Positions 320 to 60,670 of a DNA stretch of 64,000 nucleotides are shown in pieces. Positions within the stretch are counted from its first letter, which is position 1. Each line of letters begins with the position of its first letter. The DNA comes from Psammoneis japonica (lineage: Eukaryota): the NCBI GenBank assembly GCA_008632985.1, contig QPGO01000039.1, positions 124,001-188,000 of the forward strand. Direction: 5' to 3'. Made by a program: the position numbers and the translations under genes. The notes under the pieces were generated by a model, which saw nothing but the letters and a program-made list of their open reading frames with translations, was not told the origin of the DNA and searched no databases.

Positions 320-1860
320 GTGTGGCATTGCAAGGCAGCACTGGAGCAGCTGATGGTGGAGTCAGAGGTGCTAGAGCAGCTGGACAGCAAGCATTGGAGT
401 TGATGGCATTAGATCAGCTCAGAGACAATGGGGTGGCCAGCATGCAGCACTGTGGAGCAGGTGTGCCAGAGCAGGCAATGCAAAAGAGCTCGGGGGCAGG
501 GCTGGCAAGGCGAGGCAGCCAGCATGCACACAAGAGCAGCAGCACAGGAGGAGTCAGCATCAATGGAGCAGCTGGGTGGTGTTCAAGTTTTTAAGCTGGA
601 AATGGGAACATGAGCCAATGATGGTTTTTCACTGCAACAAGTGGTGCTTTTCTACAAAGAACACACAGGGCGTGAGATCTGTTGCTTGGAGCGATGGTCT
701 TGTGTCTCCCCTTGGTGTTTTTCTTGCCACAACTCTTTTTTTAGCAGCATGGTCACCACTTGGGCACAATTCTGACCCAGCTGACATTTGGAGTGAGCAC
801 GTCTTGCCGCACAAAAATGATGATGGCTCTCTTCCACACCTGGTGAGCTCTCGGGGGTTGATGAAAAGCCAATGTCGCCCACTGCTCTGAGAGCTCTCCT
901 CTTTTCCAAGAGCAGCACACCACACAGTGTGAAAGTTTGTGATCTTTTTTCCTTGCACGCCCATTGCAAAGTCAGTTTCCAGCATCGTTCTTTTGCAAAA
1001 AAGAATGGCCTTGCTTTCATTTTTTTTTGCAGCTTGCCCAGGTTGTCAAAGCATGCAGCAAATCACCGCAAACAACATTCTTGGTTTGGTCTTGAGGCCC
1101 AGAAGTGTTTTTTTGTTGTGAGGTTTTGGTGCCTTCTGCAGCAATCATTCTTTGCTTTGATGCTCTGTGAGACAATGGCAGCGTCAGAGAACAACCATTT
1201 CTCCTCAAATGTGCTGCACACAAATGAAGGCCCTTGACAGACTCATGAGCTTGAGGAGCACTGAGACAGCATTCTGCTTGCATGCACAGTTTCTCAAGAC
1301 CAAGAGGATTGCACTTTTTTTTTTGCTGAGAAACAAGCTCTGGCAGGTGTGCCAGTGCCCGCTTCATCACTCCTGGTGGCTCTGGTGTGTGGCTCTGAGC
1401 ACACCTCTGGTGTGGCTCTGAGCACACATCATGCTCCACACCACCAGAGTCACCTGTGTGCATGTTTCAATGGCGCTTCTTCAGCTGCCAAACTTTTGCC
1501 TTTTTTCACAAAGAGAGCCAACTTGCTTCTTGCAATGGCGAGCCATGGCGCTGCTGGCCCCTCAAACAAAAGGTTTGCTGCTGGTGCCTGCTGGTGCCAA
1601 GGTTTTCAAAAAAGGAAAAGCATGCAAGTTTGCAGTTTGCAGGCAATGTTGGCCTTGCATGGTCCCAGGCAACCAGATGTGTGGGGCGTTGTGACACAAA
1701 AAGAAAAGCCTGTGAAGCTTGTAGCGATGTTTCAAAGGCTTGACGGGAAAACCGTTATCTCAACGGATCTCAACGGACAATTGACGGTTGCAACGGCCGG
1801 TCGTGAAAACCGAAAGTTCAATCTTCCGACAGCAACCTACAGCCCCAGACGGCATAAAGG
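320..1860. mobile_element. Degenerate repeat/transposon remnant (TpA- and CpG-depleted), possibly ending in a DNA-transposon terminus near 1861
   Basis: Many overlapping Tyr-less, Cys/His/Trp-rich ORFs with no coherent product and very few TA or CG between 320 and 1730. Unmutated 3' edge has a tandem tctcaacgga repeat and ends ...ggcataaaggg|taa, weakly like a piggyBac CCCTTT terminus. Confidence 0.45.
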
Positions 1861-2159
1861 GTAATCATCAACAGCCCAATGTGACGTCAAAAATGAACCC
1901 AGACGTCATTGTGCAAGCATACCACTTCTACATGCCGTTGAGTCTAGTTTGGTATATTATAGTATATATTCGTTTGATGTTGAAGAAAGATGCATGAGCG
2001 ACCCACATTCTGCTGTAGTAGTAAAAGTTCGCAGAAGCGGCGAAAGGAAACCGACCATGAGCTGAGTGTCTGTCTTTTTTTTTCCCGGTTAATCGACGCT
2101 TTGACAGACACACCCAGCGAAATTCATCGTTAAGCAAATTGGGACGCAACAACACGAAA

Positions 2160-8519: not shown

Positions 8520-11500
8520 ATCGTCTGTCCTTGGTGGAGGGCAGACAGACGGATGGGGAAGAGCAAATTTCATGTGGGAGGAACATTGTGCAAACACCTG
8601 GCCACTTGCCATCATTCACAATGGGGTCATCTCAGCAGCAGAGTCACAAACACCCCTTGGAAGAAGTGGGTTCATCCTTGCTCCAGCACCACAGGCACCC
8701 CTGGCTCTTCTGCTTTTCTCCAAAAGCCTGCCTGCCTGCCTCAGCCTCTCACTGGCATGGCTGGCTGGGGAGGGGGCAGTCATGAGAGATGAGCCAGAGA
8801 ATCATTGTCCAGTGGAGTCATCACTTTGAAGGTTGTTTTCTAGAAAATTGATGCCACAGGTGATGCATCAGCAGGGTTGGTGGTGGTTTCCAGTGAGACA
8901 AGCTCATTTGCGGCAGGCAGGCTTGGTTGGCTTGCAAGTGAAGCGCAACGAGTGAAAATGGGGCTTGCATCAAAGAAGAATTTGGCACCTCACATGTGAG
9001 GTCATGACCTGTCAGAGCAGTGACAGCTGAGTTGATGATGGATGCAAGCCTCTCTACAGGCCAGAAACAGCAGCAAAAACATGTGCGCCAGCAAGAAAGA
9101 GTGAGAGAGTGTGTGCCTGGTGTCAGCTGGCATGACAGTCTGTGCACACCACTGGGGGGGGGGGCAAAAGGCATGGGTCACCCCTGCCAATTAAAGTGCT
9201 GCTTCTCTTGCATCAAGCTCATTTGGAGGACAAAAATGGGGAAAGCATGCAGACAAAAGGAAGAGGGGGGGCGTCATGCGCCACAAGAGAAGAAGCCCCC
9301 GTTTGCTCTGCTGCTTGCTTGGTGCTGCCGATGTCATGGTGGGACCCCCTCTCACTGCATCTGCCCAAGACACCCATCATGCAACAACAATGGTGTGCCA
9401 GGTGCCAAAGAGCAAGCAAAAATCTGGTTGCCCATCAACCCAGAGAGCCAGCACATCAGACTCAACAGAAGACAAATGATGTTCTGTGCTTTTGGACACT
9501 CCTCTTGCAGAGAGAGGGGCACCCTTCTCCCCTCCCTCTCTCTCCTCTCGTCTCAGGTGGTTGAGACACAGCACAAAACCATCCAAGAAAGAAGTTCCCA
9601 AAGAAGTCACAGTTGGTGACAGGGTGTGTGAGCAGTGAAACACTGAGCCACCGGAGGAGATTTGTGTGTGTGTGGTGATTTTGACTGCGATTGAAGTTGA
9701 TTTGGAAGTTTTCACNATCTGATGAGAGTTGCCGCCAGATCGGCAAGCGCGTGAGATTGAATGGCAGACTGACAAACATGACCTGCAATTTTCTTGAATG
9801 GACTGTGGAGATTTGAAAAAATGGTCACACTTGGCCTGTCCTTCCATGTGCTCACAAAACTTGCGCAGGATTCTACGCACACAATGTTGTGTGGGGCGAT
9901 GCTGAAATGGCAGTTGTGCCAATCAGGCCTCATTCAAATTTGTGTGAGGCCAATGCAAATGGCACTTTCATGATGATGATGCAGCGGCGGTGTCTTCAGT
10001 GCATTCCTGCAGTCACACCACAGTGTGTGCTTCTAGATGTGACAATGTGTTGGAAAGTTTGAAAGAGATCTGTCTCATTGGTGGCGTCTCTGATGGTGTT
10101 GTTTTCAACATCAATTTATGGACTGGCTGTTGTGGACTGGACTGTTGTGGAAGGGCTGAATGTTGCAGCACTGGTGGCAGCAGGAGCCTTTTGCTGCTTT
10201 TGCACTGGCAGTGGTTGGAGCCTGTGCACTGCTGTCCTTTTTATCTGGCGGCAGTTGGTGCCCCTGCATGATGCTGGTGCTGGTGGTGGTTGGAGCTTTT
10301 TTGCTGCTGGCCAGTGGCTGCAGTGGGAGCCCATGTGTCACTGCCACTGCAGCACTGGTGGTGGTGGGATCCTGTGTGCTGCTAGCACTGGAGGTGGTTG
10401 GAGCCTTTTGCTGCTAGAACTGGCAGCAGCAGTGGCCTCTGTGCTGCTGCTGTGGCACAGGTGGCTGTGTGAGCCTGTGTCCTGCATGTTTGCCAGCATT
10501 GGCGGCGGTTGGAGCCTGTGTGCTGGTGACCATCGAGGCATTTGGAGCCTTGTTGTGTGGTGTCGGTGGGCACCCTGCATGCTGTTGGGACTGGTGATGG
10601 TTGGAGCTTTTTTGCTGACAGCCTGTGGTTGCAGTGGGAGCCTGTGTGTCACTGCCAGCACTGGTGGCAGTGTGATCCTGTGTGCTGCTGGCACTGGAGG
10701 TGGTTGGAGCCTTTTGCTGCTGGCGCTGGTGGCAGCAGCAGCCTGTTTGCTGCTGCTGCAGCGCTGGTGGTGGTGTGAGCCTGCATCCTGTGTGTTTGCC
10801 AGCATTGGCGGTGGTTGGAGCCTGTGCACAACCATCTTTTTTATCTGGTGGCGGTTGGCACCCCTGCATGATGCTGGCACTGGTGTGGCAGTGGGAGGCT
10901 GCATCCTGCACAACTGCTGGCACTGGCGGCGGTTGGAGCCTGTGTGCTGCTGTCCCTTTCATCTGGTGGCAGTGGGTGCCCCTGCATGATGCTGGCACTG
11001 GTGGCAGTGGGAGGCTGCACCCTGCACAGCTGCCAGCGCTTGCAGCGGTTGGAGCCCGTGCCAGTGGTTGGCGCTGGAGGCGGTTGGATCCTTTTGCTGC
11101 TGGGGCCCCAGCCTGCGCTGTTGGCACTGGAGGTGATTGGATCCTTTTTGTCTGGAGGCTGTGTGATGCTGACCATTGAGGTGGTTGGATCCTTTTCATC
11201 TGGTGGCGACACCTGCCCCTGCATGGCTGCAGGCACTCGTGGTTGTTGTTGTGGAGGTGGGAGCTCGCGCACAACCGCTGGCGCACTGGCGGCGGTGGGA
11301 GCCTGTGCACTGCTGACTGGTGTGTTGAGGCGGTTGGATCCTTTTTATCTGGCAGCTCTGGTGGTGGTGGGAGCCTTTTTGTTTGCTTGCACAGATGGCC
11401 ATGTGGTGGTGGGGTTGGAGCCTGGTCGCTGCTGGCACTCGTGGTGTGGGAGGCAGCCTTTGTGCCCCCCTCCTGCTGATGGGGTGGGAGCCTTTTTGCT

Positions 11501-11620
11501 GCTGACACGGGCAACAGTTGGAGTGTTTGTGCAATGCCAGGTCTGGTGGTGGTGGGAGCCTTTTTACTGCTAGCACTGGCAGTGGTTGGAGCCTGTGCAA
11601 CACACCAACCGTCGGCGGCG
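8520..11620. mobile_element. Degenerate repeat domain (TpA/CpG-depleted), element identity unresolved
   Basis: Dense nearly Tyr-less spurious ORFs, TG/CA-rich composition, one N near 9716; contains the tandem array listed next. Confidence 0.55.
10150..11600 (+). repeat. Degenerate minisatellite of ~30-40-bp units (core gcactggYggYggttggagcc) with a ~305-310-bp higher-order period
   Basis: The ggttggagcc/gggagcc/ggatcc core recurs more than 20 times. Matching blocks at about 10290/10601, 10397/10704 and 10510/10815. Confidence 0.8.
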
Positions 11621-13184: not shown

Positions 13185-13699
13185 CTCCGATTCGCTGATG
13201 GGAATCACATATATGTGGCTGTTGATTTTTACTGGAAAAAGAAATGGGCGCAAGTAACATAAAATCGCATACTGTACTGTAGAAGGGGGCGGCTCTAATC
13301 ATGGGTCGAGAGGACGAGAGGAACCCCCCGAAATAAAGCCCTCTCTAACTAGAAAGCAGACATGAGATGCAATTGATCCAATTGTGAGAGGCAACGACGA
13401 ACTGATCGGAAGAAGAAATCATCGTGCGACTGCGCTGCGCGAGAGGAAAAATTTGGACGCAAGTAGAAAACTTGGAGTGTTCTCTACACAAATAGCCAAA
13501 GTAACCTTGCCAACTTCAACCCTCTCCCGGACAATGGAAACGTGTACATTTCACACAACAAAGTATCCAGACTGCTCATTTACACCCCCCTCAACTTGTT
13601 TGTGGAGAGAGAAACTGCATGTTTTCTTACATTCATCGTTTGGCACAGCTCCACAAAACTGGAACGTCACGATTTTGGCACCTTTCTGAAACGGATGAA

Positions 13700-37540: not shown

Positions 37541-37551
37541 GTCGAACTTAA

Positions 37552-37931: not shown

Positions 37932-38134
37932 TTAATATTATCATCTTTCTTCATGCTCGAATAATTTGTAATAGAAGTACTAACTCGTGACTCAATGAGA
38001 GCATCGAACGGGACTGATCAAGTCGTGCAACTTACTCGCGTGCGAACTCGCGCGTTCTCAATTTTCAGCGACTGCAAGAAACACACCACAACACCAGAGT
38101 TGCAATAGAGCAAAAAGAAACACTAGAAACAACC

Positions 38135-44070: not shown

Positions 44071-44267
44071 TGATCATGTGAACATGGCAGGACAAAAAGC
44101 AGCAAAATTGGCCAGCTCATTGGTGCACTGAATTGGAAAGGAGATGGACTCTGGAAGGCATTTCTCACTTGATCATGTGAACATGGCAGGACAAAAAGCA
44201 GCAAAATTGGCCAGCCCATTGGTGCACTGAATTGGAAAGGAGATGGACTCTGGAAGGCATTTCTCAC
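44071..44267 (+). repeat. Near-perfect 99-bp tandem duplication
   Basis: tgatcatgtgaacatggcagg...ggcatttctcac at 44071 and 44170, with one internal substitution seen (ctcat/cccat). Confidence 0.85.
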
Positions 44268-48825: not shown

Positions 48826-49149
48826 TTAGCATGTGCTGCTGCATGCACTCTCTAGCTGTTTGCTCAAGTCATCAGACCAAACATCATCGGACCATTCATC
48901 ATCAGTCCATGCATCATCTGTCCTGGCATCATCTCTCCCAGCATTGTCTGTCCAAGCATTGTCTGTCCCAGCATTGTCTGTCCCAGCATCGTCTGTCCCA
49001 GCATCATCTGTCCAAGCATCATCTGTCCTGGCATCATCATAACATGACATGAGATCCAAGTCAGAGGTTGCAGCATCATCAGAGAACTCAGCATTTGCAG
49101 AAGCAAACAATGACATGACGAACAGCATCAACAAACAAAATGTTTTCAT
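48826..49149 (-). pseudogene. Signal-peptide ORF with acidic (T/S)DD(A)x pentapeptide repeats (15-bp tandem repeat)
   Basis: MKTFCLLMLFVMSLFASANA followed by DDARTDDAWTDDAGTDDAGTDNAG...; embedded in the hypermutated domain. Confidence 0.55.
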
Positions 49150-50832
49150 TGTGATTTTTGAATGCCCAGTTTGAAATCAGAAACCAAGGCAAGTCAAGTC
49201 ACAAAGGCTCCAATGACTCAATGTTGAGTTGTAGATCAGGAACCAAAGGCCCATGAACTCACCAGTCTAAACGTGAAGAACACACAGCAGATGGTTGTTC
49301 TGTTTGAATCAGCACGTGGCCTTGCCTTGTGTGCCAAAGGCATAAAATGAGCTCATGGCTGCAAACGTGTGGTCAGGGGAAGGCCACTCATCGCTCAATT
49401 TAAAGGAGCAATGAATGAATTACGTCACTTTGTCAGAGGAGGACTTGTCCAGAAAATCACTGACTTCAAGCTGACACGCACATGACCCTCTGGCACTGGA
49501 ACAGTTGGTGCAATTGTGTGTGCTGCAGGTTCAACTGATGCTGACATGATGCTCAATGCCTGCAGCTGTGTCAAAGCTGCAAGCACCTTAAGGATTTTAG
49601 CCAAAAGCTTAGAACAGAGACAAGTTTGATCTAGACGAGAGCATCCAGCTTGTAAATCATCAAGCAAACGGCTTTGAAAACATGTCCATGTCTGTGATTG
49701 GAGATGGTGAAGTGCAAAAGAAGAAAACAAGCAGAAATCAATGCATGTGGTCAATTGCCGCTGACACCATGGGCTGCTTGCTGTCGACTGAAATGTCAAC
49801 ATTGCCACCAGGTGTTGCAACGCTCATGACTTTGGTCACCCGATGCTGCATTTGATCGACCGCATCCAGATCAGGCAGTTTGGTTCAAACACAGGCGTGG
49901 CTTTCCTCTGAGAGTCTTCATTTGTTGATGCCACACTCACACTTGATTCTCCAATGGCTTCTTTTGCTTTGTTGACAGTTTTCTGAGATGAATTCTGGAA
50001 ACAACACGTCCGCAGGGGCTCGAACTTGGTGTTGAGTTTGGGTGGCTGCAGAGAGGGCTTCGCATTTTGGGTTCCCACCAAGTGCTCTCGCAAGATCGCC
50101 GCAACACTTTTGGTGTCATCAATGATGCCACTCTGCTTGGAAGCATCAACAACCTAAAGCAGGCGGAGCAAATTGCTTTGCAGCTGAGACAAGATTGTCG
50201 GGTCCAATCCTGGTGCCATGGGCGCCAGTGTGCCGACAACTTGTGTGCCATGTGCTTGTTGGAGATCCCAGCCAAACTCTGGGATGGTCGAGATGTCATT
50301 GCAGATTCTGCTGTTGTCCACCAGATTGTTTGCCAAAAGTGAGAGGATGCATTGGGGTTCCCATTTCGGCCTTGAATTGAGATGGAGTCTCAAAGGTTCA
50401 CTTGTCACATTTCTCCCAACACACTCCTGTGGTGCCACTGAGGTTGATTGACCTGCGGGACCAAACTGAATGCGTTGATTGCCCTTCCTGGGCCTGTTCT
50501 TGTTCTTGTTCTTGTCCATCTTTCTTTCCTTGGGTTCCTTGGTTGGTTGCTTGGACGGTTGTGGTGACTTGACGACGGCAGCAAGGCCCATGATTGGGTC
50601 TCGAAATTTTCAAAATAGAGCGCCCTGAAGTGGCTTGCTCACATGCAATCTCCTGTCATTTCTGATTTGGGACACCATTTCACCTTCAGTTCTCCACTCG
50701 CCATTTGGTCTGTGATGAAGAAATGCCAAATGTTGATGTGCTTGGTGCGTTTGCTGCTAGAGGCGTTGCCGTTCTTTTCAGAAGCATGGCACTCTTTTTG
50801 TCTTGGTGCATGACGTCATCCACAACCTCGCA

Positions 50833-51220
50833 ACGCGCTCCAGCCCCAGGTGGGACTCCGTGTGACATTGGGCCCGTAGAATTCTACGTGCGAGCTCCCC
50901 AGTGCGAGAATTTAATCAATGCATGTGTTTGTCTTCAACATCAAATAAACCGCCAAGTTTGTGGTGCAATTGTGCCTCTTGCCACTCGACGTTTTTGCAA
51001 ATGCGCCTGCCCTGCGCGATTCTTAAGACGTCATAGAATTGCGCTGCAACAAAAAATGTCAAAAGTTGTTGGACGGATCGCTCAACAAGTGCACCGTAAA
51101 ATGACACAAAATGTCGAAAAAATCACGTAGAAATCTATGTGCGCGACATGCGACGTGATTCAAAAAACCATCAATGTCACAGTTCAGCAGTGCGAGGTCC
51201 CACCTAGACCTGGAACGCGT
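50833..51220. mobile_element. MITE, 388 bp, 24-bp imperfect TIRs, 6-bp TSD CTCGCA
   Basis: Left end acgcgctccagccccaggtgggac; right end reverse complement acgcgttccaggtctaggtgggac. TSD at 50827-50832 and 51221-51226. Removal restores Copia EAQGCEVVDD. Confidence 0.88.
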
Positions 51221-51808
51221 CTCGCATCCTTGAGCTTCCACAAAGTGGCGCATCCAACAATGGCATGAAGTCATCAGCTCCAACAACCTCGGCTTTGGCA
51301 GAGCTGCAAGTGTTGAGCTTCTGCTTGGTGGACCCCGTTGCAGGGAATCCTCGTCCTGGGGACAATCCTCCTCCGGAGTGTCCTTGCATGTTTGGATGGA
51401 CCGCACATGCTGAGTCGATCCACCATTTAAGGACACCACTTCCGTTGGCACTCAAAATCAGGGGCGACGTGCGTGCATCTCTGAGACACTTCACAAGGCC
51501 AGCAAGTTTGTCCCAGTCATCCTTGTCTGGTTCTCACACACTCTCGTCGTGAGAAATGTGATTGCTGTGCATGTGTCAGGTCGGGCTCATTTGGTGGCAC
51601 ATGATGTCTTGGCTGCCAAGTTGTGAAACTGTGCAGCCTTGTCTGCTGATGGCTTTTTGCAGTCTTCGTCAACTGCAAGCAAGTCTTTCGGTGCTGCGTT
51701 CGACTTGGCACCCTTTTCCTTTGGAGCAGCCTTGTCGAATGCTGATGGGATCTCATCGATGCACCCTGTCATTGCAATCTTGACTTGACCATGGACGGTG
51801 TGGTCTAA

Positions 51809-53050
51809 GACTCTGTCCAAACACTGTCATGGGCATGATCACACCCACGTCACGCAGGCTTTTATGATGACGTCACAGGTCACACCCGCAATGTTCTGTC
51901 CAAACACATTCGTGCGTGCTGTGTGACAGCAGCCCCACCTCATGGACATTAGTCGAATGATTCAAACTTACAGCACGCGAAGCAATGCCAGATGCAACAT
52001 GAATGAACCAGCGATGACAACACGACAAGAACGACATGACCATGTCGACGAGATCGCAACCACAAGGCGACAATGAGCCACACAAAGGACACCCATTGAT
52101 AAAAAAATCATGCTTGTGCACAACTTATGGCTTGATCAGTTGTCTGAAAGAGTGCATGACATGAATTTATTTTAAGAAACTGTTTGGCGAAATGGTTGTG
52201 TCAGAAGAGTCCAGAATGGCACACAAAGCCCCCCAAAGACAACAAGCGGCCCATGCATGGTCTCATGTGGTTGCCTCATATAACATGCAGCCACATGCGC
52301 TTTGGCCGCATCAAAAAACGATGCACATCGGTTGTTTTCGTGTTTCGTCGGTGGGGTGTGATGTTTGGGTATGATGTTTAAAATAGAAGATTAAGGGAGC
52401 CTGTGTAGAGCGGAAGGGAACAGCAGAGGGAGGCACGGAGGTAGCTGTAGAGATGGCAGAGTAGAAGGGTTGAAGGACGCAAGACGAAGGGCGTTTTGAG
52501 GAAGGCATGGGTGAGGAGGGAGTGGGGAGAGAGGAGGTGAATCGAAGGATGTGCGTAGAAAGGTGAAGAACGACGTTGCAGCTGAGAGTTTGGGTGGCCC
52601 ACTGGGATGGGGTGGCCATACGGCAGGCACTCCCAAAGCAATCGGCGGACAGACGACGCCATGCGAAGTCAGCGGAGGGAAGGATTGCAGACGGAGACGA
52701 CAAAGCGTAGAGGAAGGCGGAGCAGGAGGCATCAGAGTGACGAAAGTCAGAGGAAGAGGACCAGGGTGGCTTGGGCTGAGAGCAGACAGAGGAGGATGTA
52801 GAACCAAAGAGCAAGCGGTGAGCAAAGCAGCCGAGACCACCAAGGTGATCTACAGTGAAGGGGAGCAGGAAGATGCCATCATCGAGGAAGTCTGTTCTTG
52901 CGAGAACAAACATCCTCGTGAAAGTTGGCATGGCCTAAAATTACGTCATGCATGGGGCCAATGACCACTGATTTTTTCGAAGAGGCTCATTTTAGGTGCT
53001 GTGACGTCAGGCATGATCACACGCATGCATGACAGTGTTTGGACAGGGTC
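51809..53050. mobile_element. Non-autonomous PIF/Harbinger-like element (1242 bp), 23-bp TIRs, TAA TSD
   Basis: Left end gactctgtccaaacactgtcatg; right end reverse complement gaccctgtccaaacactgtcatg. TAA at 51806-51808 and 53051-53053. Removal restores LGMTL-DHTV. Confidence 0.9.
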
Positions 53051-53524
53051 TAAAGTCATTCCAAGACATTCATGATTTTGCCTCTGCTGACGGTCATCTT
53101 TCCAGATCCGTCTTCAAAAATGCTCTCGCATTCCTTAAGAAGCCATTCCATCATCCTGTCTGCCACTTTCCTCTTGCGGTGGCTCAGTTTGCAGTGTCGT
53201 CCACATGGAACAAGACAGTCATCTGCATTCCTTTGATGTCCTTGTTGAAGATGCAGGGATTGCATGGGTTCACAACAAAACCAATCAAATCAAGACTTTT
53301 AGTGAACTTACGGCAGCAGAGCAGGCTTGCCACCACAGTGCCGCAGAGGGCGTTGTGGCACCCAACCAACAACTGTTTCACTCCCTTCTTGTCTGTTGTG
53401 ATGTGCAAAGGGCAAGCAAACATCTGGAGCCATCTCCAGCAGGATGTCAACCAGGACTCCACCTAGCCTGATGATGACCATGTCCTTCTTGTGTTCGATT
53501 TGGGTTTAGATGAATGCGTTTGGG

Positions 53525-54081
53525 ACGTGTTCCAGCCGCGCGTGAACACACGCATTTAAAAAAACAACATTTGCGCGATTTTCGCATGGCCACTAACTTG
53601 TGATCAAACTGTTGAGTAAAAAAAATGCTTCACACATTTGCAAATGTTTTTGACACACATTGACAAGACCCACCTGAGTGTGTTAAAACAATCGGTTGCT
53701 TTCCATTTCTCATTTTTGTTGCGCTAATTGCATCACAACACAACGGATGATTTTTGGCGCAACTGTTGCCGTCATTGGGATGTCACCCAAACACATCTTT
53801 CTACGATGCCGCTTGGCATGTTTTCCACCTGCAAAGAAATTGCACAGTGTGAAATGTGCTGACGTAGAATCAGCATTGAGTCCACTGAGGAGGTTTGTGA
53901 CACATGTCCCATGAGAACTTGAATGCCCCACAAAAAACTGTTTAATTGTCCACACTCTGTGCGCCCACAAAAGTTAGTCTGCCCAAGTGTTTTACATGAA
54001 AATGCTCCATGTGCTAAAAGACACACAATTTATGTTCAAAATCAATTGTCGTTTTGTGCGTCACCTGGGACTGGAACACGT
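53525..54081. mobile_element. MITE, 557 bp, ACGTGTTCCAG TIRs, 6-bp TSD YTTGGG
   Basis: Perfect 11-bp TIR acgtgttccag/ctggaacacgt. Flanks tttggg (53519-53524) and cttggg (54082-54087). Removal restores Copia DIPNAF. Confidence 0.85.
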
Positions 54082-56281
54082 CTTGGGATGTCAGCCACTG
54101 CGACATCATCTTCTTCTTTGGCATCAATGACACACAAAAGCAAAACTGCTTCTGTTGACACTGTTGGCAAGCTGGCATCCTTCTTTGAGATGCAGTCTCA
54201 TTGCTTGTTTCCACCTGCAACGGCACAGCCTTTGACACTCTTGTCGCGCTTTTCCTTGAGGAACATGTGGGAATCCAGTGCGGTTCAACGTTGACGCAGT
54301 GTCAGTTCCCTCCAATGCAGGGGTTCGAGCGCATCCCTGAAGTGCAGTTGCTTCATTTCGGAGCAGGCCGCTTTGTAGGCTCTGTCTCCCCATTGCTTGA
54401 GACCAGCCTTGAGGGAAAGCTGTGTCATGATCACAGCCACAACATCGGGTTCCTGCTGGCAGAAGTCATGCTGCACAAACATGTGTGAGTCAGGATTGAG
54501 TGCGCTGTGGGTCTCCAGTTTCATTGCGGCATGTGAGCACTTGTTGCCAGTCATGCTTGGGATGCAGCTCTTGGTCTGAGTCTTGGTCCGCGCACAGAAC
54601 AACGCAGTCCTTCAGTGGGTTGTTCCATTGGCTGTTGAGCCGGTTCTGGTGGTGGTGCTGGTGTTTCAGGTTTGGCAGGGGCCTGAATTTTGTCTTGTGG
54701 AGGTGGAATGTTGAGATCATCCTCTGTTTCGTTGACTGGAGGAGGTTTGTAATTGTCCCATGCATCATCCGCAGCATCCACTCCTGGGAGCTCAACATTG
54801 CCATCGTCGGCTTCCTCAGGTGGCAACAGGTCCACTCCTGGGGTAGGAGCAAGGGGGTCTTCTGGCATGAGAGCATTGTTGATGAGCTTGTCCTCAGGTT
54901 CCACTCCTGGGACTTCCACATCTCCGATGAGATGGCCTTTGCAATCAGCAAAGATCAGGTCTTCCAGTTGGTCCTTGCCGAGTTCATCAACTTGCGCAAC
55001 AATGACATTGGGCACAGGGAGTTCATCCCAGTTGCAGTGTGCAATCTTCTTGCCAGAATCAAGAGCCATGGGTCAACATCCTCCTTGGACACTCCGGTTT
55101 TGGCAGTTTTCATGCATGGGGCAAGTGGATGCACATGCAATGTCGACATTGTTTTGACTGTTAGATTCGTTCCATGTGGTGCCATCATCTAGCTGCAGTG
55201 TTCACAGGCAAATGTTTTGTCTGTTGGTTGTCGTGCAATCACCCATGTCGGCCTTCAACGTGACGAAACATTGAGCAGCTTAATTGGGCCTGACCGGGGT
55301 CAAGATTCCATGTCCCTCGACTGCCTCCCCCACATTGGACCTTTGAGGCATGCCAGCAATCCATCGTTTCTCTGTGTGTCTGAATTGCTTTGGAGAGGTC
55401 TTTTAACAGTGTAACGTCATGAAGATTGAGTCACACTGGGTCAGATTGTGGTGCTCACACTGAGATTTGCATGGGGTGAGTGCAGTTCAAGGTGTTTTCT
55501 TGACCCCCCCAGCAAACATGAAAGTCTCCCAGACAACCAACACAATTGCCACCGACTCCCACACTTTGATTCAATCTCTTTCCACAATCAAAATGTGCAT
55601 CATCTGCCTGGCCGCCAGCTTCAAATGGCTTTGCCATGAAACCATGCCAATGGCAGAAAGCTTTGAATGTCCAAAGGTCTGACATTCTTGCATCTGTGCA
55701 TGAGTCAACTTTTGGCCAGATCCAACTTGAACCCAAGCAGCAATGTTGCCATCAGTTTGGACTGGGGCACGTGTCCATTGCAATGATGAGGCGACATGAC
55801 AGTGTGGAAATCGAGTGATGTTGATGACTGTTCCCTGGTTTTGAAACAAAAAAGCACGAGTGAGACCACATCGCGGACGGCCACCGGCGCTCATCAATGC
55901 TGACACGCGCGCTCCCGCCCTGGCCTCGCGCCTCGCCTCTCACCTCAAAACTCAAGATCCTTTGTGCTTTTGTTGCTCTTGGCTCTTGTCCTCCGCCAAC
56001 ACTGCTTTTGCAATTTACAAGCACAGTCAAATCTGCTCAATGATTGGTGTCTTGGCCTGATGCCGTCAAAAAAGCAGAAAACGCAGGTCAAAACCGCTTG
56101 CAATTTTGAAAGTTCTGACAACGGCGGCCACTGCAAACCCCATGGCTCGCCTTCTATCTCCCCTCCTCAAGACAACAACAATGATGCGCTTTCATCCTCA
56201 TTGCAGAATCTTTTGAGTCAAAATGACTCCATGATGAAAGCTGTCAGGTGTTCCAGAGACAGTGTCATCTTTGTCGTGGAC

Positions 56282-56827
56282 TCAACATTCAGAATCTTCT
56301 GCAGGACATTCGGGTCCGGTTTCATCGTGTTGGCAGGTGTAAATCAATGTTGTTTCGATTTCTGCATCGTGCTTCATGCACAGTGACTCGGATGTGCATG
56401 TGTTGTTGATCGAAACTTGTGTGAACGTCTTGTCTGTTTGCTTGTTGTTGTTGTTGTCAAACTGCACGACAAAGTCACTGCAGCTGAAAACGCTGCCATT
56501 GTGATCACTTGGTCTGATCAAAATCACGTCTAATGCTTCTCCTTGTGCGATGTCATTGTTGTCACCTGGACACATGATCATGTCCATCACAGCAGTGTTG
56601 CAAGACAGACAATCAAGAGAAAAGGTGTCGTCGCCACAGCAATTCGATTTCGCCATCATGGTCATCGCAAAGTGTTCGAGCAAACGGCGCGTGCACTCTT
56701 GCGGTTTTGGCACGAATGCGCAAGTCTGTTCCTTACCCTGACAGCTTCTCCTAGACAACAGCTGTTCATCACAATGTGGAAGGAAGTCCAGATGCATTGC
56801 GAAGGATCTGTTCACCACAGCGTTCAT
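56282..56827 (-). pseudogene. Host-like Cys-containing protein fragment within the hypermutated domain
   Basis: 181-aa frame with protein-like composition but only one Tyr; no TE motif recognised. Confidence 0.35.
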
Positions 56828-57082
56828 TCTCGCGATTGGATGACCGGCAAATTGTCGACAAGAAGAAATCGTGGCAAGCCAAGAAAATGAAAAATTGGCT
56901 CGTCAAGCCAGAACTAAAAGACAGCACAAACAAGAACAAGAAAGTCAAGAAGCAGAGCAAGAAAGCAGAAGCAGAGACAAGGGAATGAAGAATGGCAGAC
57001 GCAGATGATGCAGCCAAGTGGAAGGAGGAGCTCTGTCATGGTGCACTGGATGGGAGAGAAGTGAATGGTGCAGCTGGATCTA

Positions 57083-57085
<3 letters not shown>

Positions 57086-57116
<31 letters not shown>
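57086..57116 (+). repeat. (GA)n microsatellite
   Basis: Run of GA dinucleotides. Confidence 0.9.
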
Positions 57117-57118
<2 letters not shown>

Positions 57119-57934
57119 GCAAGAGCAGGGGATGCACATTGACCAGACGAGACACGAGACCTGTGTTGCCCCCTGCTTTGTCTTGATGTCAGCGCAGTGT
57201 TGACTGTTGAGTGCCTTTGTTTGTTGTGTGGGCAGCAAGATGGCTGGAACAATGGACTGCAGAACAGTTTGAGCCAATGTCACTTGTCTGACTTTGTGTC
57301 TTGTTGGTCTTGCTTTGGCTGAGTCTGTCTTTTCTTTTCACACAAGGTTTGCAAAGCAGTCATCTGGAACATGAAAGCCAATGGCCTTGAGCTCACGCAA
57401 GGAGCTGGATCGAAAAGGCTTGTCTCGAGGTGGCAAGCGCTCAACCAGTTGCTTGTGGGTGACCAGAGTTGGCTCACATCCATGCGCATTCACAAGTTTC
57501 TTCACTGTGTCCAACGTTTCTTCTCGGAAGTGGTGCTCTTTCGAAGAGTCACTGAAAGAATGCCATCTCAGCACCCAGCAAAGATGCTCTAGATTTCTTG
57601 GGCATTGTTTTCCGCCTGGGCGTTTTGCGATGATGGCAAGACGGTCCTTCACTGAAAGACAGGTTTGAGTTGAGAACAGATCATTGTTCATCTGGTGTGG
57701 CAACAATGCAAGTGCTGACCTGCGCGAGCGGGAATCCCGCACCATTGTTTGTGTCAGTTCCTGACTTCTTGGGAGGAGACACCCAGGACCATCAGACAGC
57801 CTGACGGTTTACCCCAGCCATGTGGCACCATGTCACACCCTGGGTGTGATGGCCATTGTGCCCATGCCATGCAATTGACCACTTGCCACAAGTTCTCACA
57901 TTGATGCAGGGAAGGCGTTGAACCAAGGGACATC

Positions 57935-59350
57935 ATGTCCACCTCCATGGGTGGTGGAGATTGCCTTCTCTGTTCAGTGTGCCAACTCCCCTTTTCTGCA
58001 CGGGGTGGTTTGGAGTCACATCTTCGGCAGTCCACCAACTGCCAGCAAGCTCTTGCCACTGCTGGAGCTGCCACTGCTGCTGCCAACTCCACAGATGGCA
58101 ATGATGGGGATCTCAGTGAAGCTCCACCTCTTCGATGCATTGAATGCCGTTGTCAAGGTGCAAATTCTGTGACAAACACCACTCAAATTGTTCCCTCCAC
58201 CCTCAACCCCGGAACAAGGAGATCTTCCAGACCAGCAGCATCACAAGCATGGCACCCCCAGTCCTCTGCCTCCAGAACGTCACCTCCTCCAGATGCATTG
58301 ATGGTGTCATCTGTCCATCACAATGAATCAGCCGAAGCCACATCTTTCATCATGGCCACTGAGGAAGAGCAAAGCAACAACGTTGGTGCTGGTGCTGGTC
58401 TCCCACCAGCACATCTTCTGGAAGGTCAAGCAATGAATCTGGCCGACAATGAGGACTTCAACGCACCCATGGTGCATTCTAACGAGATTCATGCAATGGC
58501 TGGGATCCTGTGACTGTGTCAGATGTCAGGTGTTCCCGTTGAGGTTGCTGATGACATCACAGCCACTGTTCACAACAAGCACGCCTCTGGCAGCCTTTCA
58601 GCTGCACGCCCCCCTCCCAAGACCCGAACCGTCATTTCCAAACTAGAAAAAATGCTCCCTGGTGTTGTGAAACCAGTCTTGTTCAGGGTGCCACTCAAAA
58701 CAGTCTCCATCAATGCTCAATTTTGACACAATCCTGACTTTGTGTCCTCTGCCCCCATCCCTTCACACAATTTCCTGGAGCAACTAGATGATCATTTTGC
58801 AGATCCCATTTTCCACAACATCAACAATCTCAACGTTGATCCTCATGACCACTGGCGCGCGCATCCAACAACTCCCTCTGGTTGCAACACCAGCAATGGT
58901 GACTGGAACCTGAAGTCAGAATCAGAAGTCAAGGATGGTGAGTGGCAGAACAAGTTTGCTGCAGTGTTCTTTGGTCCCAAGCTCCCTCCCGTCTTTCACA
59001 CATTCTTGATTTTCTACACTGACAAGATGGGGAATGGAGCAGTTTCCCCTCTCTCCATGGAACCGTTTGTGTTCTCACACTTGCTCTCATTAAAGAATCT
59101 GCCCGGAGGAACCACCGTTGCTGGAGGCCCCTTGGATTTGTGCCATGTTGCAGCAGCCCCTTGATCTCCTCCAAACAGAATGTTTTTTGGCAGGAATGTC
59201 CGGAACTGCCATCGCATCCTGAGCAAAATTCTGGAGCCCTTGTTTGAAGCCCAGAAGAATCCGCGATGCAACTTGGGCTTGTGGCAGAGAAATGGGAGGG
59301 CAAAGAACTTGGCTGAAGGAGTCCATTTGGTTGATTCGAGGATGACTCCT
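57935..59350 (+). mobile_element. Degenerate Plavaka-like transposase with N-terminal C2H2-type zinc finger
   Basis: CSVC..PFSARGGLESHL; FLEQLDD...NLNVDP.D.W; NGDW; LIFYTDK.G...MEPFVFS; WRPLGFVP; RNCHRIL. Stops and frameshifts. Confidence 0.65.
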
Positions 59351-59649
59351 TCCTTGACTTGGTGGCAATGATGGACTTGAGCCTTGGAGCACACAGCTCC
59401 AGGCCAAATCCATTGGTGAACAGCTCGGTTTCATTGAAATCGGGTGCATCAAACGTGAAGGACGGGTCGGGGTCACCGCCATCGTCGTCGCCGTCCTTCA
59501 ACAATTCGGCTGCCATGGTTGATTGCTTGTGGTGCGTTGGGTGGAAGTTTGTGCAGAAACGTGTAGAACGCAACAGTGCACCCTCTCTCAGCTGAGTCCG
59601 TGCACTGCTGCAATCTATGGTTCATAGAGTTGATGTCCGGAGGCTGTCA

Positions 59650-60670
59650 AATGAAGTGATGAGTGTCCATTGCAGGGCAAGGGATGTTGAAGTTGTTGCC
59701 TCTGCATGACGCCCATTGCTTCGTTGTCTGAGGAAAACTCAGATGGCAGAGGAGTGACAAAGTCATCCAGAAACAGCAGGGGGACTCACCCATTTGCGGA
59801 AGCTTCACCTTAAATTGTTTTGGAGTGAATGTGCAATGGGCATCTGCATTGTTGGTCACGCGTTGTCACACGAATGGCCAAAAATCCTGTGCTGCCCACA
59901 TCAGATTCTCACACCCAATGGGTGGCAAATTCCCACATGGTGGTGTGGGATTTGCCACACATGTGGGTGTGCCCTTCACAACATCATTGCCACACCAGAT
60001 GTTGCGCTCCAGCATGAAAATGGCGATGGAGTTCGTTGTCTCCTTGCGTGTCTCCATCCGAGTTGAGCCATTCATTGTCATTTGCCTTGTAGTCCCACTG
60101 TCCACAGCGGACAAAGTCATGGCAAGTTGTTCCATCTTCAGGGCGAAACTCACAGTCCAGGATGTGCGCTCCGTTCAGCACAAGTCTTCGCCCGCGTTTC
60201 AGGCATCCCACAAAGAACGCTTCTTGGGAAAGCGGGCAAGAAAAGGAACGACACATCTGGTCATCTTCTCACAAAGCTTTTGGCGCCATCTCCGAGATCC
60301 ATCGTCATCTTCATCATCATCACCCTCTACATGCTGATGCCTGCATTGGATCATGTGCGACAAGATCTTGATCTCTTTCACGCAACCCTTGTCAAAACGA
60401 CGAGCTTGAGCAGCATTCAGCCCCCCGGATGGGAGAAGAAGAGCCTGGGCACCAGCGGTAGAACATCATGCAGATAGAAACGGCACATGGCGGAGGAATT
60501 TAGCACACCTGAGTGTGGAACGTGATCGGCATTATCTTGGCCCAGATTTCGGGAGGGAGAAACGGCAGCGGCCCAGCAGGGTTACCGTAGCATTGACTCC
60601 TGGTCTGTCTGCCAACCGTTTTCCACACCGCCCCATCACTACGCCTCTTCCTTTTCGTCGTCGTTGTTGT
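59650..60670 (-). pseudogene. F-box-like family pseudogene (paralog of 62627-62971)
   Basis: LPFLPPEIWAKI..DHVPHS.V.N.SA.CRF.LH; then, after frameshifts, AQARRFDKG.VKEIKI...VVPFLARFPK. Confidence 0.7.

What the first reader, a model, noticed from the sequence alone, without database searches (positions are those of the whole stretch)
320..60400. Candidate repeat-targeted TpA>TpG/CpA hypermutation system (a 'reverse RIP')
Seen: kb-scale repeat domains (about 320-1730, 8520-11620, 13690-15590, 30750-33650, 40440-41240, 43900-60400) are nearly devoid of TpA and poor in CpG, with TG/CA in excess, while neighbouring genes use TA and CG freely. In three unrelated TE classes (LINE, Copia, Plavaka-like), conserved Tyr codons read as Cys or His, i.e. 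A>G at TpA on either strand. Established: 5mC deamination gives CpG>TpG/CpA (diatom TEs are CG-methylated by DNMT5), and fungal RIP gives CpA>TpA; neither removes TpA. Inference: a second, A:T>G:C mutator acts on repeats or heterochromatin. Candidates are adenine deamination or modification at TpA, or a context-biased repair/translesion pathway. It would destroy TE catalytic Tyr motifs and TA target sites. I know of no description of this, but cannot check the literature.
Basis: partly seen in the sequence, partly recalled or inferred. Interest (0 to 1): 0.95.

Follow-up and report, generated by a model that had tools for sequence, protein, structure and literature searches.

The report
TpA-erasing hypermutation of diatom transposons
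Dead transposons and repeats in this diatom genome have lost nearly every TA step to TG or CA, the footprint of a targeted A:T-to-G:C mutator so far described only once, in an unrelated alga.

Summary
In the six stated domains TA occurs 170 times against 1682 expected (o/e 0.10; outside 0.54) and CpG o/e is 0.35. Read-derived contigs at about 60x reproduce 5.8 kb of TA-free DNA with 6 differences.

Polarised against 70 homologues, a degraded Ty1/copia element keeps 0 of 19 consensus Tyr (14 Cys, 3 His). A>G at codon position 2 hits 14 of 19 TA contexts but 10 of 270 others. A Plavaka-like DNA transposon shows the same pattern. The LINE was not found.

New details:
- The hot motif is 5'-TAY-3'. 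RTAY is 97-99% gone, while YTAR is half kept.
- TA loss is faster than, and separable from, CpG decay.
- It cannot create stop codons.
- Metagenomic relatives (L031, L019, protein P0031) carry the same signature with CpG and open frames intact.

The organism is a diatom. The same TpA>TpG/CpA hypermutation was shown directly in Bigelowiella natans (bioRxiv 2026), so the process is not undescribed. I found no report of it in diatoms. The enzyme is unknown; an adenine deaminase is the leading guess.

The parts
314..1720 (.). TA/CG-depleted domain (TA 5, CG 17, TG+CA 312 among YpR steps); content unidentified
   Evidence: HMM segmentation; sliding windows
8526..11606 (.). TA/CG-depleted domain. 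It is strand-asymmetric (TG 456 against CA 259) and holds tandem units of 103, 118 and 306 nt at 10262-11061. It starts 187 nt upstream of the ATG (8339) of the minus-strand SAM-WHD-AAA gene
13583..15589 (.). TA/CG-depleted domain (TA 7, CG 22, TG+CA 448); holds a 99-nt duplication at 15170-15370
30757..33665 (.). TA/CG-depleted domain. Its core, 31335-33335, is a high-copy family with roughly 160-180-nt tandem units (summed word depth 1100-5400 against about 60)
39678..39871 (-). Short depleted segment lying within the 181-nt GT..AG intron (39704-39884) of an FKBP gene; both exons are normal
   Evidence: (joint 39703/39885)
40451..41255 (.). TA/CG-depleted domain (TA 4, CG 5, TG+CA 184). It ends 324 nt before the kinase gene's ATG. 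One of its few remaining TAs (40712-40713) reads TG in the X1 contig
43735..60453 (.). 16.7-kb block of nested mobile-element relics, depleted throughout except for two islands. CpG o/e varies from 0.05 to 0.8 within it, while TA stays at or below about 0.39 (mostly 0.03-0.28)
50535..55096 (-). Degraded Ty1/copia polyprotein (RT to C-terminus, model positions 929-1702) in 9 frame-shifted pieces. It is interrupted at 53527-54083 (557 nt) and 51812-53064 (1253 nt). The aligned pieces have TA o/e 0.092
57962..59266 (+). Plavaka-like DNA-transposase relic with two in-frame TGA stops and a frameshift; TA o/e 0.064
50748..51223 (.). Near-normal island (TA fraction 0.087, CG 0.26) lying in a gap of the Copia alignment
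52279..52944 (.). Near-normal island (TA fraction 0.116, CG 0.233) nested inside the 1253-nt insertion in the Copia; probably the youngest insert
63416..63997 (.).
37338..38004 (.). Counter-example: a high-copy element (summed depth 6149) with normal TA (o/e 0.7-0.8) and CpG (1.0-1.4)

Best explanation
SHOWN. The window comes from a diatom nuclear genome. About 26.5 kb of it is relics of mobile elements and repeats: a Ty1/copia retrotransposon, a Plavaka-like DNA transposon, tandem families and unidentified remains. Two context-specific transition processes have rewritten these relics.

(1) A:T>G:C at TpA, giving TpA>TpG or CpA according to the strand hit. It is close to saturation and strongly prefers 5'-TAY-3' (equivalently T>C in 5'-RTA-3').

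(2) C>T at CpG, as expected from cytosine methylation of diatom transposons (established knowledge, not tested here).

Process 1 is faster than process 2 and does not depend on it. It hits both strands equally and stops within a few bases at the domain borders, next to intact genes. It affects a DNA transposon as well as a retroelement. It cannot create stop codons, so it leaves reading frames open but full of missense changes (Tyr>Cys/His, Ile>Val/Met/Thr, Val>Ala, Thr>Ala).

INFERRED. This is the long-term footprint of the TpA-specific hypermutation that a mutation-accumulation experiment caught in the act on integrated viral DNA in Bigelowiella natans. It would then be a regulated, locally targeted DNA-editing defence that acts in place on silenced or foreign DNA.

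MOST SPECULATIVE STEP. The agent is a DNA-acting adenine deaminase (A>inosine, read as G), perhaps of the TadA/ADAT2 kind, whose native tRNA substrate has U33-A34. That motif parallel is recalled, not tested. How targets are chosen (small RNA, chromatin mark or homology) is unknown.
For: Depletion and borders.

Flux balance against flanking DNA, per 1000 dinucleotides: TA -32.2, CG -30.8, TG +32.7, CA +32.7. GC rises by 19.7 and AT falls by 13.5. That is what TA>TG/CA predicts, and the opposite of what CpG decay alone would give.

Polarity, from the Copia against an HMM of 70 homologues, 67 of them carrying PF07727:
- In columns where at least 56 of 70 homologues agree, Tyr is kept 0 of 12 times and non-Tyr/non-Arg residues 252 of 299 times (Fisher 8e-10). 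Arg is kept 10 of 25 times.
- A>G at codon position 2: TA 14 of 19, CA 0 of 34, AA 7 of 95, GA 3 of 141 (Fisher 8e-14).
- A>G at codon position 1: 18 of 24 events follow a T, while only 3 of 112 retained A's do.
- T>C at position 2 is followed by A in 12 of 16 events.
- G>A at position 1 follows a C in 22 of 30 events.

The 3' preference:
- NTAN remaining, domains relative to outside: ATAT 0.01, ATAC/GTAT 0.01, GTAC 0.03. Mixed contexts 0.09-0.22. CTAA/TTAG 0.46, TTAA 0.50, CTAG 0.51.
- Polarised: T|A-Y 17 mutated and 0 kept, T|A-R 1 mutated and 3 kept (p 0.003).
- This also explains Cys 14 against His 3.

DNA-level and in place:
- The Plavaka-like DNA transposon is hit.
- TG and CA counts are equal in 5 of the 6 domains.
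- Aligned repeat units show 103 adjacent CA/TG double differences, against 10 AC/GT and 6 CT/TC.
- The youngest nested insert is the least depleted.

Not an assembly artefact:
- X1 contigs at word depth 61-65 cover 44238-47486 with 1 difference and 47457-50000 with 5.
- Seventy-nine metagenomic relatives have median TA o/e 0.64. The window's copy has 0.092.

Independence from CpG decay, and occurrence elsewhere:
- Protein P0031 keeps 7 of 17 conserved Tyr (6 Cys, 1 His), 42 of 42 conserved Arg and an open 1777-aa frame.
- L031: Tyr 4, Cys 5, His 5 of 16; CpG o/e 0.92.
- L019: Tyr 7, Cys 6, His 11 of 26; Arg 38 of 43; no stops.
- The same RTAY-hot, YTAR-cold pattern appears in these loci.

Precedent: bioRxiv 10.64898/2026.01.13.699255 (Results and Discussion read). 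It reports 230 of 231 de novo mutations in two viral inserts as A>G or T>C, all at TpA, about 1000 times the background rate and only in some lines. TpA-poor CDS there are enriched in RT and DDE domains.

Host: all named Dus homologues are diatoms.
Against: - No de novo event was observed here. Everything is a footprint in one 64-kb window, and no genome is held.
- The flux and residual-context figures assume that the elements began with the composition of the flanking DNA. The 79 relatives support that only for the Copia.
- The reads (X1-X3) come from one sample that may be the assembly's own, and their library type is not on record. A read-level artefact is therefore unlikely but not formally excluded.
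- The choice of targets is unclear. A roughly 100-copy element at 37338-38004 is untouched. Most depleted DNA is single-copy at 85% likeness or more.
- The CA/TG double differences cannot be assigned one by one to TA or CG ancestors. Aligned pairs: CG/TG 40, CA/CG 39, TA/TG 15, CA/TA 10.
- No LTR pair was found, so the cleanest in-place test is missing.
- L072 has TA o/e 0.22 but keeps 12 of 22 Tyr with only 1 Cys. A low TA content can therefore arise in other ways.
- The close pair L008/L007 shows only modest TA-type excess: 10 of 26 and 5 of 35 derived changes.
- Nothing here tells adenine deamination from a thymine-directed route, and no candidate enzyme could be searched for.
- For the retroelement alone, editing at the RNA or cDNA stage is not excluded.
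Confidence: 0.7

Rival explanations
1. The footprint and the targeting are the same, but the chemistry starts at thymine. A TET/JBP-type dioxygenase would hydroxylate T in 5'-RTA-3' within silenced DNA (5hmU or a base-J-like derivative), and mispairing or faulty repair would fix T>C.
For: TpA is palindromic, so A>G in TAY and T>C in RTA cannot be told apart in sequence. In dinoflagellates a TET/JBP enzyme makes 5hmU that is enriched on repeats and helps silence TEs (PMC11572971, abstract and passages seen). Plavaka-type transposons are associated with TET/JBP genes in fungi (recalled, not checked).
Against: In the passages I read, that paper reports no T>C mutagenesis and no TpA context ('TpA' occurs 0 times). 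5hmU pairs with A and is only weakly mutagenic (established knowledge). There is no evidence for 5hmU or base J in diatoms in anything searched here. No genome was available to look for the enzyme.
Confidence: 0.13
2. There is no dedicated system. A context-biased error or repair pathway, such as a translesion polymerase or biased mismatch repair, would work only in heterochromatin and slowly convert TpA to TpG/CpA as a by-product of silencing.
For: Depletion coincides with CpG-decayed, presumably methylated and silent DNA, and domain borders are sharp like chromatin borders. The extent grows with apparent age in the nested inserts.
Against: Copies with open frames and all conserved CpG-Arg codons intact have already lost half or more of their Tyr (P0031, L019, L031). 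The process is therefore much faster than ordinary decay. In conserved columns Tyr loss is more than 15 times the background per-codon loss. In B. natans the rate is about 1000 times background and is on or off between lines. No known polymerase or repair bias is this strict for TAY (my knowledge).
Confidence: 0.1
3. Editing happens before integration. Retrotransposon RNA or cDNA would be deaminated at UA/TA (ADAR- or APOBEC-style), so copies arrive already mutated, which would explain borders that coincide with element ends.
For: The environmental Copia copies with open frames (P0031, L019, L031) could be 'edited on arrival'. A 5' U preference is typical of ADARs, as stated in the preprint's Discussion.
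Against: A DNA transposon relic is hit equally. Both strands are hit: Cys and His in the window, and L019 with 6 Cys and 11 His. Tandem units diverged by CA/TG double differences after duplication. TAG is the least depleted trinucleotide (0.29, against 0.05 for TAT), whereas ADARs favour a 3' G (recalled). ADARs are confined to animals (recalled).
Confidence: 0.04
4. The pattern is a sequencing or assembly artefact: modified bases in heterochromatin are miscalled, so TA is read as TG or CA.
For: The library type of the only runs found is not on record, and they share one sample that may be the assembly's source.
Against: X1 contigs average 214 nt per record, and the pieces laid on this stretch have a word depth of about 60. 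That is the look of accurate short reads, and they match the TA-free block with 6 differences in 5.8 kb. The same signature occurs in unrelated metagenome contigs and in a database protein. The elements also carry frameshifts, insertions and CGA>TGA stops, which show real decay.
Confidence: 0.03

Closest known systems
TpA-specific hypermutation of integrated giant-virus and virophage DNA in Bigelowiella natans (Mettrop et al., bioRxiv 10.64898/2026.01.13.699255; Results and Discussion read)
   Same: Only A>G/T>C, only at TpA, either strand. It is confined to foreign or mobile DNA next to normally mutating genes. The long-term signature is TpA loss with CpA+TpG gain. TpA-poor CDS are enriched for reverse transcriptase and DDE transposase.
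   Different: The host is a diatom (Stramenopiles), not a chlorarachniophyte (Rhizaria). Only the footprint is seen here, not the events. Depletion here is near saturation (TA o/e 0.02-0.1, against Rho 0.45 for their NCLDV insert). The targets are transposons and tandem repeats. A CpG-decay layer lies on top. The 3' pyrimidine preference found here is not mentioned in their main text ('trinucleotide', 'flanking' and 'downstream' occur 0 times). Their supplements could not be read.
Repeat-induced point mutation (RIP) of ascomycete fungi
   Same: A genome defence by dinucleotide-specific transitions that riddles mobile DNA with mutations, leaves sharp borders and skews dinucleotide content.
   Different: The direction is opposite. 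RIP makes TpA from CpA, lowers GC and creates stop codons. Here TpA is destroyed, GC rises and no new stops can arise. RIP needs duplication and a sexual cycle, and neither is shown here.
5-methylcytosine deamination at CpG in methylated transposons
   Same: It is present here as the second layer: Arg CGN>TGN/CAN in 13 of 32 consensus Arg, and G>A after C in 22 of 30 events.
   Different: It cannot remove TpA. TA loss also occurs where CpG is intact (55.5-57 kb in the window; P0031, L019, L031).
Deaminase editing of retroelements in animals (ADAR A>I on dsRNA; APOBEC3 C>U on cDNA)
   Same: Host-driven hypermutation of mobile elements by base deamination. ADAR shares the 5' U/T preference.
   Different: Here a DNA transposon and tandem DNA are also hit, both strands equally. 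The 3' preference is pyrimidine, not G. The change is A>G, not C>U.
5hmU marking of transposons by TET/JBP in dinoflagellates (PMC11572971)
   Same: A non-cytosine base modification aimed at repeats in a marine alga.
   Different: It is an epigenetic mark, and no mutational footprint is reported in the passages read. No link to TpA is stated.

Membership tests
TpA-specific A:T>G:C hypermutation of foreign DNA (B. natans type) | Substitutions are A>G/T>C and fall on TpA only | tested here: met
   Codon position 2: TA 14 of 19 against 10 of 270 in other contexts. Position 1: 18 of 24 events follow a T. T>C is followed by A in 12 of 16 events.
TpA-specific A:T>G:C hypermutation of foreign DNA (B. 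natans type) | TpA depletion is coupled to CpA+TpG enrichment in clustered kb-scale regions | tested here: met
   TA -32.2 and TG+CA +65.4 per 1000 dinucleotides. Ten HMM segments total 26,557 nt.
TpA-specific A:T>G:C hypermutation of foreign DNA (B. natans type) | Confined to mobile or foreign DNA; neighbouring genes are spared | tested here: met
   Copia and Plavaka-like relics lie inside the domains. Genes at 187-324 nt from the borders have normal TA. One high-copy element is spared.
TpA-specific A:T>G:C hypermutation of foreign DNA (B. natans type) | De novo mutation rate orders of magnitude above background, and episodic | not testable with these tools
   This needs mutation-accumulation lines. 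Here there is only a lower bound from the footprint: Tyr loss is more than 15 times the background per-codon loss.
Fungal RIP | C>T at CpA producing TpA; GC falls; stop codons are created | tested here: not met
   TpA is destroyed, not made. GC is 0.497 in the domains against 0.465 outside. Of the stop triplets in the depleted domains, 1246 of 1462 are TGA.
CpG methylation decay as the sole cause | All excess TG/CA derives from CpG | tested here: not met
   TA loss equals CG loss in size. GC rises and AT falls. Tyr>Cys/His is polarised. TA loss occurs with intact CpG.
ADAR-type RNA hyper-editing | A>G with a 5' U and a 3' G preference, on transcripts only | tested here: not met
   The 5' T preference is met. 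The 3' preference is Y: TAT remaining 0.05, TAC 0.11, TAG 0.29. A DNA transposon and both strands are hit. The ADAR 3' G preference is recalled.
Ty1/copia retrotransposon (the element at 50535-55096) | Polyprotein with an RVT_2 reverse transcriptase, collinear with family members | tested here: met
   Nine collinear hmmsearch pieces cover model positions 929-1702 of an HMM built from 70 homologues, 67 with PF07727. Pfam itself gave no hit on the window's copy.
Plavaka (KDZ) DNA transposase (the element at 57962-59266) | Homology to PF18759 | tested here: inconclusive
   The window's copy matches P0201 at E 1.5e-93. Of 11 homologues scanned, 3 hit PF18759 and 2 of those are above the cut-off. 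P0201 and the window's copy give no direct Pfam hit.
TadA/ADAT2-type deaminase as the agent | A CDA-fold adenine deaminase is present, nuclear, and active on DNA at TAY | not testable with these tools
   No genome is held for this window.

The most novel reading that the evidence does not exclude
Diatoms and chlorarachniophytes, and perhaps the SAR clade at large, would share a dedicated DNA-editing immune system. It would recognise newly silenced mobile or viral DNA and, in bursts, convert A to G in 5'-TAY-3' on both strands of the integrated copy. It would act before and independently of cytosine-methylation decay. It would kill catalytic Tyr and other TA-bearing codons while leaving reading frames open. 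The TAY motif points to a TadA-like adenine deaminase recruited to chromatin, which would be a natural double-strand-DNA adenine editor.
Probability: 0.45. Interest if true: 0.9.

Novelty: new member of a known kind. Interest (0 to 1): 0.75.

Why it matters
**A second lineage.** A targeted A:T>G:C mutator is the mirror image of RIP and of APOBEC-type defences. Until a 2026 preprint no such process was known in any eukaryote. Finding its saturated footprint in a diatom, a different supergroup branch of great ecological weight, suggests an old and widespread defence rather than an oddity of one alga.

**Handles for finding the enzyme.** The new details give testable leads: the TAY motif, independence from CpG methylation, action on DNA transposons, and sharp borders. 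A natural DNA adenine editor would also interest base-editing technology.

**Practical consequences.**
- Hypermutated elements keep open reading frames. Gene callers therefore report them as proteins, as with P0031, and family profiles miss them: Pfam saw neither TE here.
- TE annotation, TE age estimates and dinucleotide-based methylation proxies (CpG o/e, TG/CA excess) will be biased in diatom genomes.

Tried and rejected
- **Pfam on the depleted DNA.** 212 stop-to-stop ORFs of 70 aa or more and four read-through scans gave no TE family. The elements were found only through a YVDD-like motif scan and homologue searches.
- **LTR pair for the Copia.** None turned up in a sensitive self-BLAST or in the repeat finder.
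- **Rfam.** No family in the window.
- **Sequencing runs.** No RNA holder was listed. X3 laid nothing. X2 gives no cover over the depleted domains; its uneven depth and a spliced joint suggest RNA, but it is labelled 'DNA?'. This is not used as evidence. Only 40 of 335 'other letter' rows were shown, so contexts of read/assembly differences could not be tallied in full. Of the 40 shown, 8 are TA<>TG/CA and 11 are CG<>TG/CA.
- **Trio L008/L007/L011.** Only a modest TA-type excess.
- **L072.** TA-poor, but without the Tyr>Cys/His signature, so it is not counted as an instance.
- **Intron motif.** A search for the intron's internal motif in other domains was at chance level.
- **Earlier findings of the scan.** Nothing on this genome or this phenomenon.
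- **Literature.** Searches for a diatom report found none. A search for natural dsDNA adenine deaminases returned only base-editor papers.
- **UV damage.** Considered and rejected, because C>T at non-CpG sites is rare (Pro kept 28 of 32, His>Tyr 0 of 13).
- **GC-biased gene conversion.** Rejected, because A>G outside TpA is rare (10 of 270).


Full report
**1. The observation**

A sliding 1-kb scan shows TA o/e of 0.00-0.15 over long stretches that alternate with stretches at 0.4-0.85.

| Region | Length | TA o/e | CG | TG | CA | GC | AT |
|---|---|---|---|---|---|---|---|
| Six stated domains | 26,616 nt | 0.10 (170 against 1682.3 expected) | 0.35 | 1.67 | 1.78 | 1.21 | 0.86 |
| Rest of the window | 37,384 nt | 0.54 | 0.97 | 1.22 | 1.20 | 1.02 | 0.95 |

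(All.)

It splits the last by two near-normal islands, 50748-51223 and 52279-52944. It also adds 39678-39871 and 63416-63997. The depleted total is 26,557 nt.

Borders are sharp. One lies 187 nt from the ATG of the SAM-WHD-AAA gene, and another 324 nt before the kinase gene.

**2. Is it in the DNA or only in the assembly?**

No genome is held for this window. One public sample holds the region as three runs, all kept as contigs, with library type not on record.

X1's contigs have a word depth of 61-65, the same as over the genes, and average 214 nt per record. They cover:
- 39712-44100 with 2 differences,
- 44238-47486 with 1 difference,
- 47457-50000 with 5 differences.

So an independent k-mer assembly of accurate reads reproduces the TA-free block. 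The sample may be the assembly's own. I therefore rate the artefact as unlikely rather than excluded. Section 6 adds evidence from metagenome contigs that are not this assembly.

**3. What the domains contain**

Pfam recognised no transposon family. It was run on 212 of the 215 stop-to-stop ORFs of 70 aa or more. The three left out were two flanking genes and one ORF with the N. Four read-through scans with X at the stops also found nothing.

A motif scan found one HVDD site at 53207 on the minus strand. Its surroundings retrieved 70 proteins at up to 73% identity, 67 of them with PF07727 (RVT_2). An HMM built from them places nine collinear, frame-shifted pieces on the minus strand between 55096 and 50535, covering model positions 929-1702. 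Insertions interrupt them at 53527-54083 and 51812-53064. This is a Ty1/copia relic.

A second relic lies at 57962-59266 on the plus strand. It matches P0201 at E 1.5e-93. Three of 11 scanned homologues hit PF18759 Plavaka, two of them above the cut-off. So the 'Plavaka-like' reading holds, at a distance. The LINE was not found.

Other findings on content:
- Tandem families lie at 10262-11061 and about 31694-32699.
- 31335-33335 is high-copy in the reads.
- 43.3-50.0 kb has single-copy depth.
- A roughly 100-fold element at 37338-38004 is rich in TA and CpG and unmutated.

**4. Direction and context of the changes**

*Codon evidence from the Copia.* Over 734 aligned model positions, the 19 consensus Tyr read Cys 14, His 3, Val 1, Phe 1 and Tyr 0. 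Eleven of these columns have Tyr in at least 60 of 70 homologues.

For comparison, retention of other residues was:

| Residue | Kept |
|---|---|
| Trp | 7 of 7 |
| Pro | 28 of 32 |
| Gly | 35 of 43 |
| Asp | 42 of 54 |
| His | 10 of 13 |

In columns where at least 56 of 70 homologues agree, Tyr is kept 0 of 12 times, against 252 of 299 for non-Tyr/non-Arg residues (Fisher 8e-10). Arg is kept 10 of 25 times, going to Cys, Gln, His, Trp or TGA, which is CpG decay.

*Context of A>G and T>C.*
- A>G at codon position 2: 14 of 19 after T, 0 of 34 after C, 7 of 95 after A, 3 of 141 after G (Fisher 8e-14).
- A>G at position 1: 18 of 24 events follow a T, whereas only 3 of 112 retained A's do.
- T>C at position 2 is followed by A in 12 of 16 events.
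- G>A at position 1 follows C in 22 of 30 events.

*The Plavaka-like relic.* Against P0201 it shows Tyr > His 3, Cys 1, Tyr 1 and Ala 2. The two Ala lie in a frameshifted stretch.

*Rivals excluded by this.* The family consensus does not already carry Cys/His. A>G is not general, which rules out GC-biased conversion. C>T outside CpG is rare, which argues against UV damage.

**5. New details of the process**

(a) *Flux.* Relative to flanking DNA, per 1000 dinucleotides, TA changes by -32.2, CG by -30.8, and TG and CA by +32.7 each. The losses and gains balance. GC rises by 19.7 and AT falls by 13.5. TA>TG/CA predicts this; CpG decay predicts the reverse.

(b) *Flanking bases.* NTAN remaining, domains relative to outside:

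| Class | Contexts | Remaining |
|---|---|---|
| RTAY | ATAT, ATAC/GTAT, GTAC | 0.01, 0.01, 0.03 |
| Mixed | four context pairs | 0.09-0.22 |
| YTAR | CTAA/TTAG, TTAA, CTAG | 0.46, 0.50, 0.51 |

An additive per-strand model fits all ten classes roughly. Its rates by the base 3' of the A are T 2.3, C 1.75, A 0.35 and G 0.34 (my arithmetic). The hot motif is therefore 5'-TAY-3'.

The polarised check agrees. T|A-Y sites give 17 A>G and 0 kept. T|A-R sites give 1 A>G and 3 kept (p 0.003).

This also explains the excess of Cys (14) over His (3). A Tyr codon is itself TAY on the sense strand. The antisense A is hot only if the preceding base is a purine. Across both elements, His follows a purine in 5 of 6 cases.

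(c) *No strand bias.* TG equals CA in five of six domains.

(d) *Independence from CpG decay.* At 55.5-57 kb TA o/e is 0.04-0.10 while CpG is 0.64-0.75.

(e) *Stop codons.* TA>TG/CA cannot make a new stop. In the depleted DNA 1246 of 1462 stop triplets are TGA.

(f) *Action in place.* Aligned repeat units differ by 103 adjacent CA/TG double changes, against 10 AC/GT and 6 CT/TC. That is the mark of separate hits on either strand of an ancestral TA or CG after duplication.

Individual ancestors cannot be assigned. Aligned pairs are CG/TG 40, CA/CG 39, TA/TG 15 and CA/TA 10.

The two near-normal islands lie in stretches that do not align to the Copia model. One is nested inside an already depleted insertion. 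This fits accumulation with time.

**6. Outside the window**

Seventy-nine metagenomic loci of the same Copia family have a median TA o/e of 0.64 (quartiles 0.58-0.70) and a median CpG of 0.91. The window's aligned pieces have 0.092.

Some relatives carry the signature without CpG decay or stops:
- L031: TA o/e 0.17, CpG 0.92; of 16 Tyr columns, Tyr 4, Cys 5, His 5.
- L019: of 26 Tyr columns, Tyr 7, Cys 6, His 11; Arg 38 of 43; no stop.
- Weaker cases: L051, L039, L050 and L008.

Protein P0031 has an open 1777-aa frame. It keeps 7 of 17 conserved Tyr (6 Cys, 1 His) but 42 of 42 conserved Arg. Against its nearest relative, its commonest differences are Y>C 17, V>A 16, T>A 12 and Y>H 9.

L031, L019 and L072 together repeat the RTAY-hot, YTAR-cold pattern: ATAC 0.10 and GTAC 0.16, against CTAG 0.86 and TTAA 0.70.

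Results that weigh against this reading:
- L072 is TA-poor but keeps 12 of 22 Tyr with only 1 Cys.
- The close pair L008/L007 shows only 10 of 26 and 5 of 35 TA-type derived changes.

**7. Organism and literature**

All named homologues of the window's Dus protein are diatoms, and the best hit of any kind, which is unnamed, is 59% identical. Genes here are long and nearly intron-free. The window is therefore diatom nuclear DNA, not Bigelowiella.

A 2026 preprint (10.64898/2026.01.13.699255; outline, Results and Discussion read) reports mutation-accumulation lines of B. natans:
- 231 of 302 nuclear mutations fell in two integrated viral regions.
- 230 of those were A>G or T>C, and all of these GC-biased changes were at TpA.
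- The rate was about 1000 times background.
- It was seen in 11 of 15 lines.
- TpA-poor CDS were enriched in RT and DDE domains.
- An ADAT2-like deaminase is proposed as the agent.

Its main text mentions neither diatoms nor flanking-base preference. Its supplements were not readable here.

Five searches found no report of this process in diatoms. A dinoflagellate paper shows 5hmU on repeats as a silencing mark (PMC11572971; abstract and passages read). It serves as the model for the thymine-first rival.

**8. Mechanism**

Shown: a saturating, DNA-level, strand-symmetric, TAY-specific A:T>G:C process confined to mobile-element relics, overlaid by CpG decay.

Inferred: it is the same kind of targeted hypermutation as in B. 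natans, acting in place and early, before CpG decay.

Guessed: adenine deamination by a TadA/ADAT2-like enzyme. The U33-A34 context of their tRNA substrates, and the YAC preference of early TadA-derived editors, are recalled parallels and not tests.

A thymine-directed route cannot be excluded from sequence alone. Target choice is open. Copy number alone is not the trigger, because the element at 37.3-38.0 kb escapes.

**9. Verdict**

The finding is real and striking. It is no longer without precedent. It is a new instance, in a second eukaryotic lineage, of a process described once in 2026. It adds a sequence motif, a relation to CpG decay and evidence of occurrence in environmental samples.

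Noticed in passing
window 39704-39884 (minus strand): The 181-nt GT..AG intron of an FKBP gene carries the TA/CG-poor, TG/CA-rich signature (3 TA and 1 CG), while both exons are normal. The X2 contig splices it out exactly, which suggests that X2 is RNA although it is labelled 'DNA?'. It may be a transposon-derived intron hit by the same mutator, which would mean targeting at a resolution below 200 nt.
   Followed up: partly
window 37338-38004: An intergenic element with summed read-contig depth of about 6149 (against about 60 around it). It has normal TA and high CpG, and is rich in CTAG/CTCTAGCT repeats. It is a high-copy repeat that escapes both TA and CpG erosion.
   Followed up: partly
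proteins P0031, P0036; loci L019, L031: Database 'proteins' and metagenome contigs of the Copia family have open frames but half or more of their conserved Tyr replaced by Cys/His. Because TA>TG/CA cannot create stops, hypermutated dead elements pass as intact genes.
   Followed up: yes
window 8526-11606: This depleted domain is strongly strand-asymmetric (TG 456 against CA 259; G 1007 against C 710; GC up to 0.61). It is built of 103-, 118- and 306-nt tandem units. Its nature is unknown.
   Followed up: no
window 4866-8339 (minus strand): An intronless 1157-aa protein with SAM, a variant winged helix (PF22977) and AAA ATPase domains. Beyond three unnamed, presumably close relatives (59-68% identical), the next hits at 30-35% identity include an ATPase from a Sphingomonas bacterium; most are unnamed.
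   Followed up: no
window 48869-49038: A 15-nt tandem repeat of 11.3 copies lies inside the TA-free block.
   Followed up: no
window 40713: One of the few TAs left in domain 40451-41255 reads TG in the X1 contig (depth 61 of 61). This is either an allelic or culture difference, or a recent TpA>TpG event. It is a single site.
   Followed up: no
NCGN contexts in the depleted domains: CpG loss depends on context. GCGC is almost fully kept (0.94 of the outside frequency), while ACGA/TCGT and TCGA fall to 0.27-0.28.
   Followed up: no
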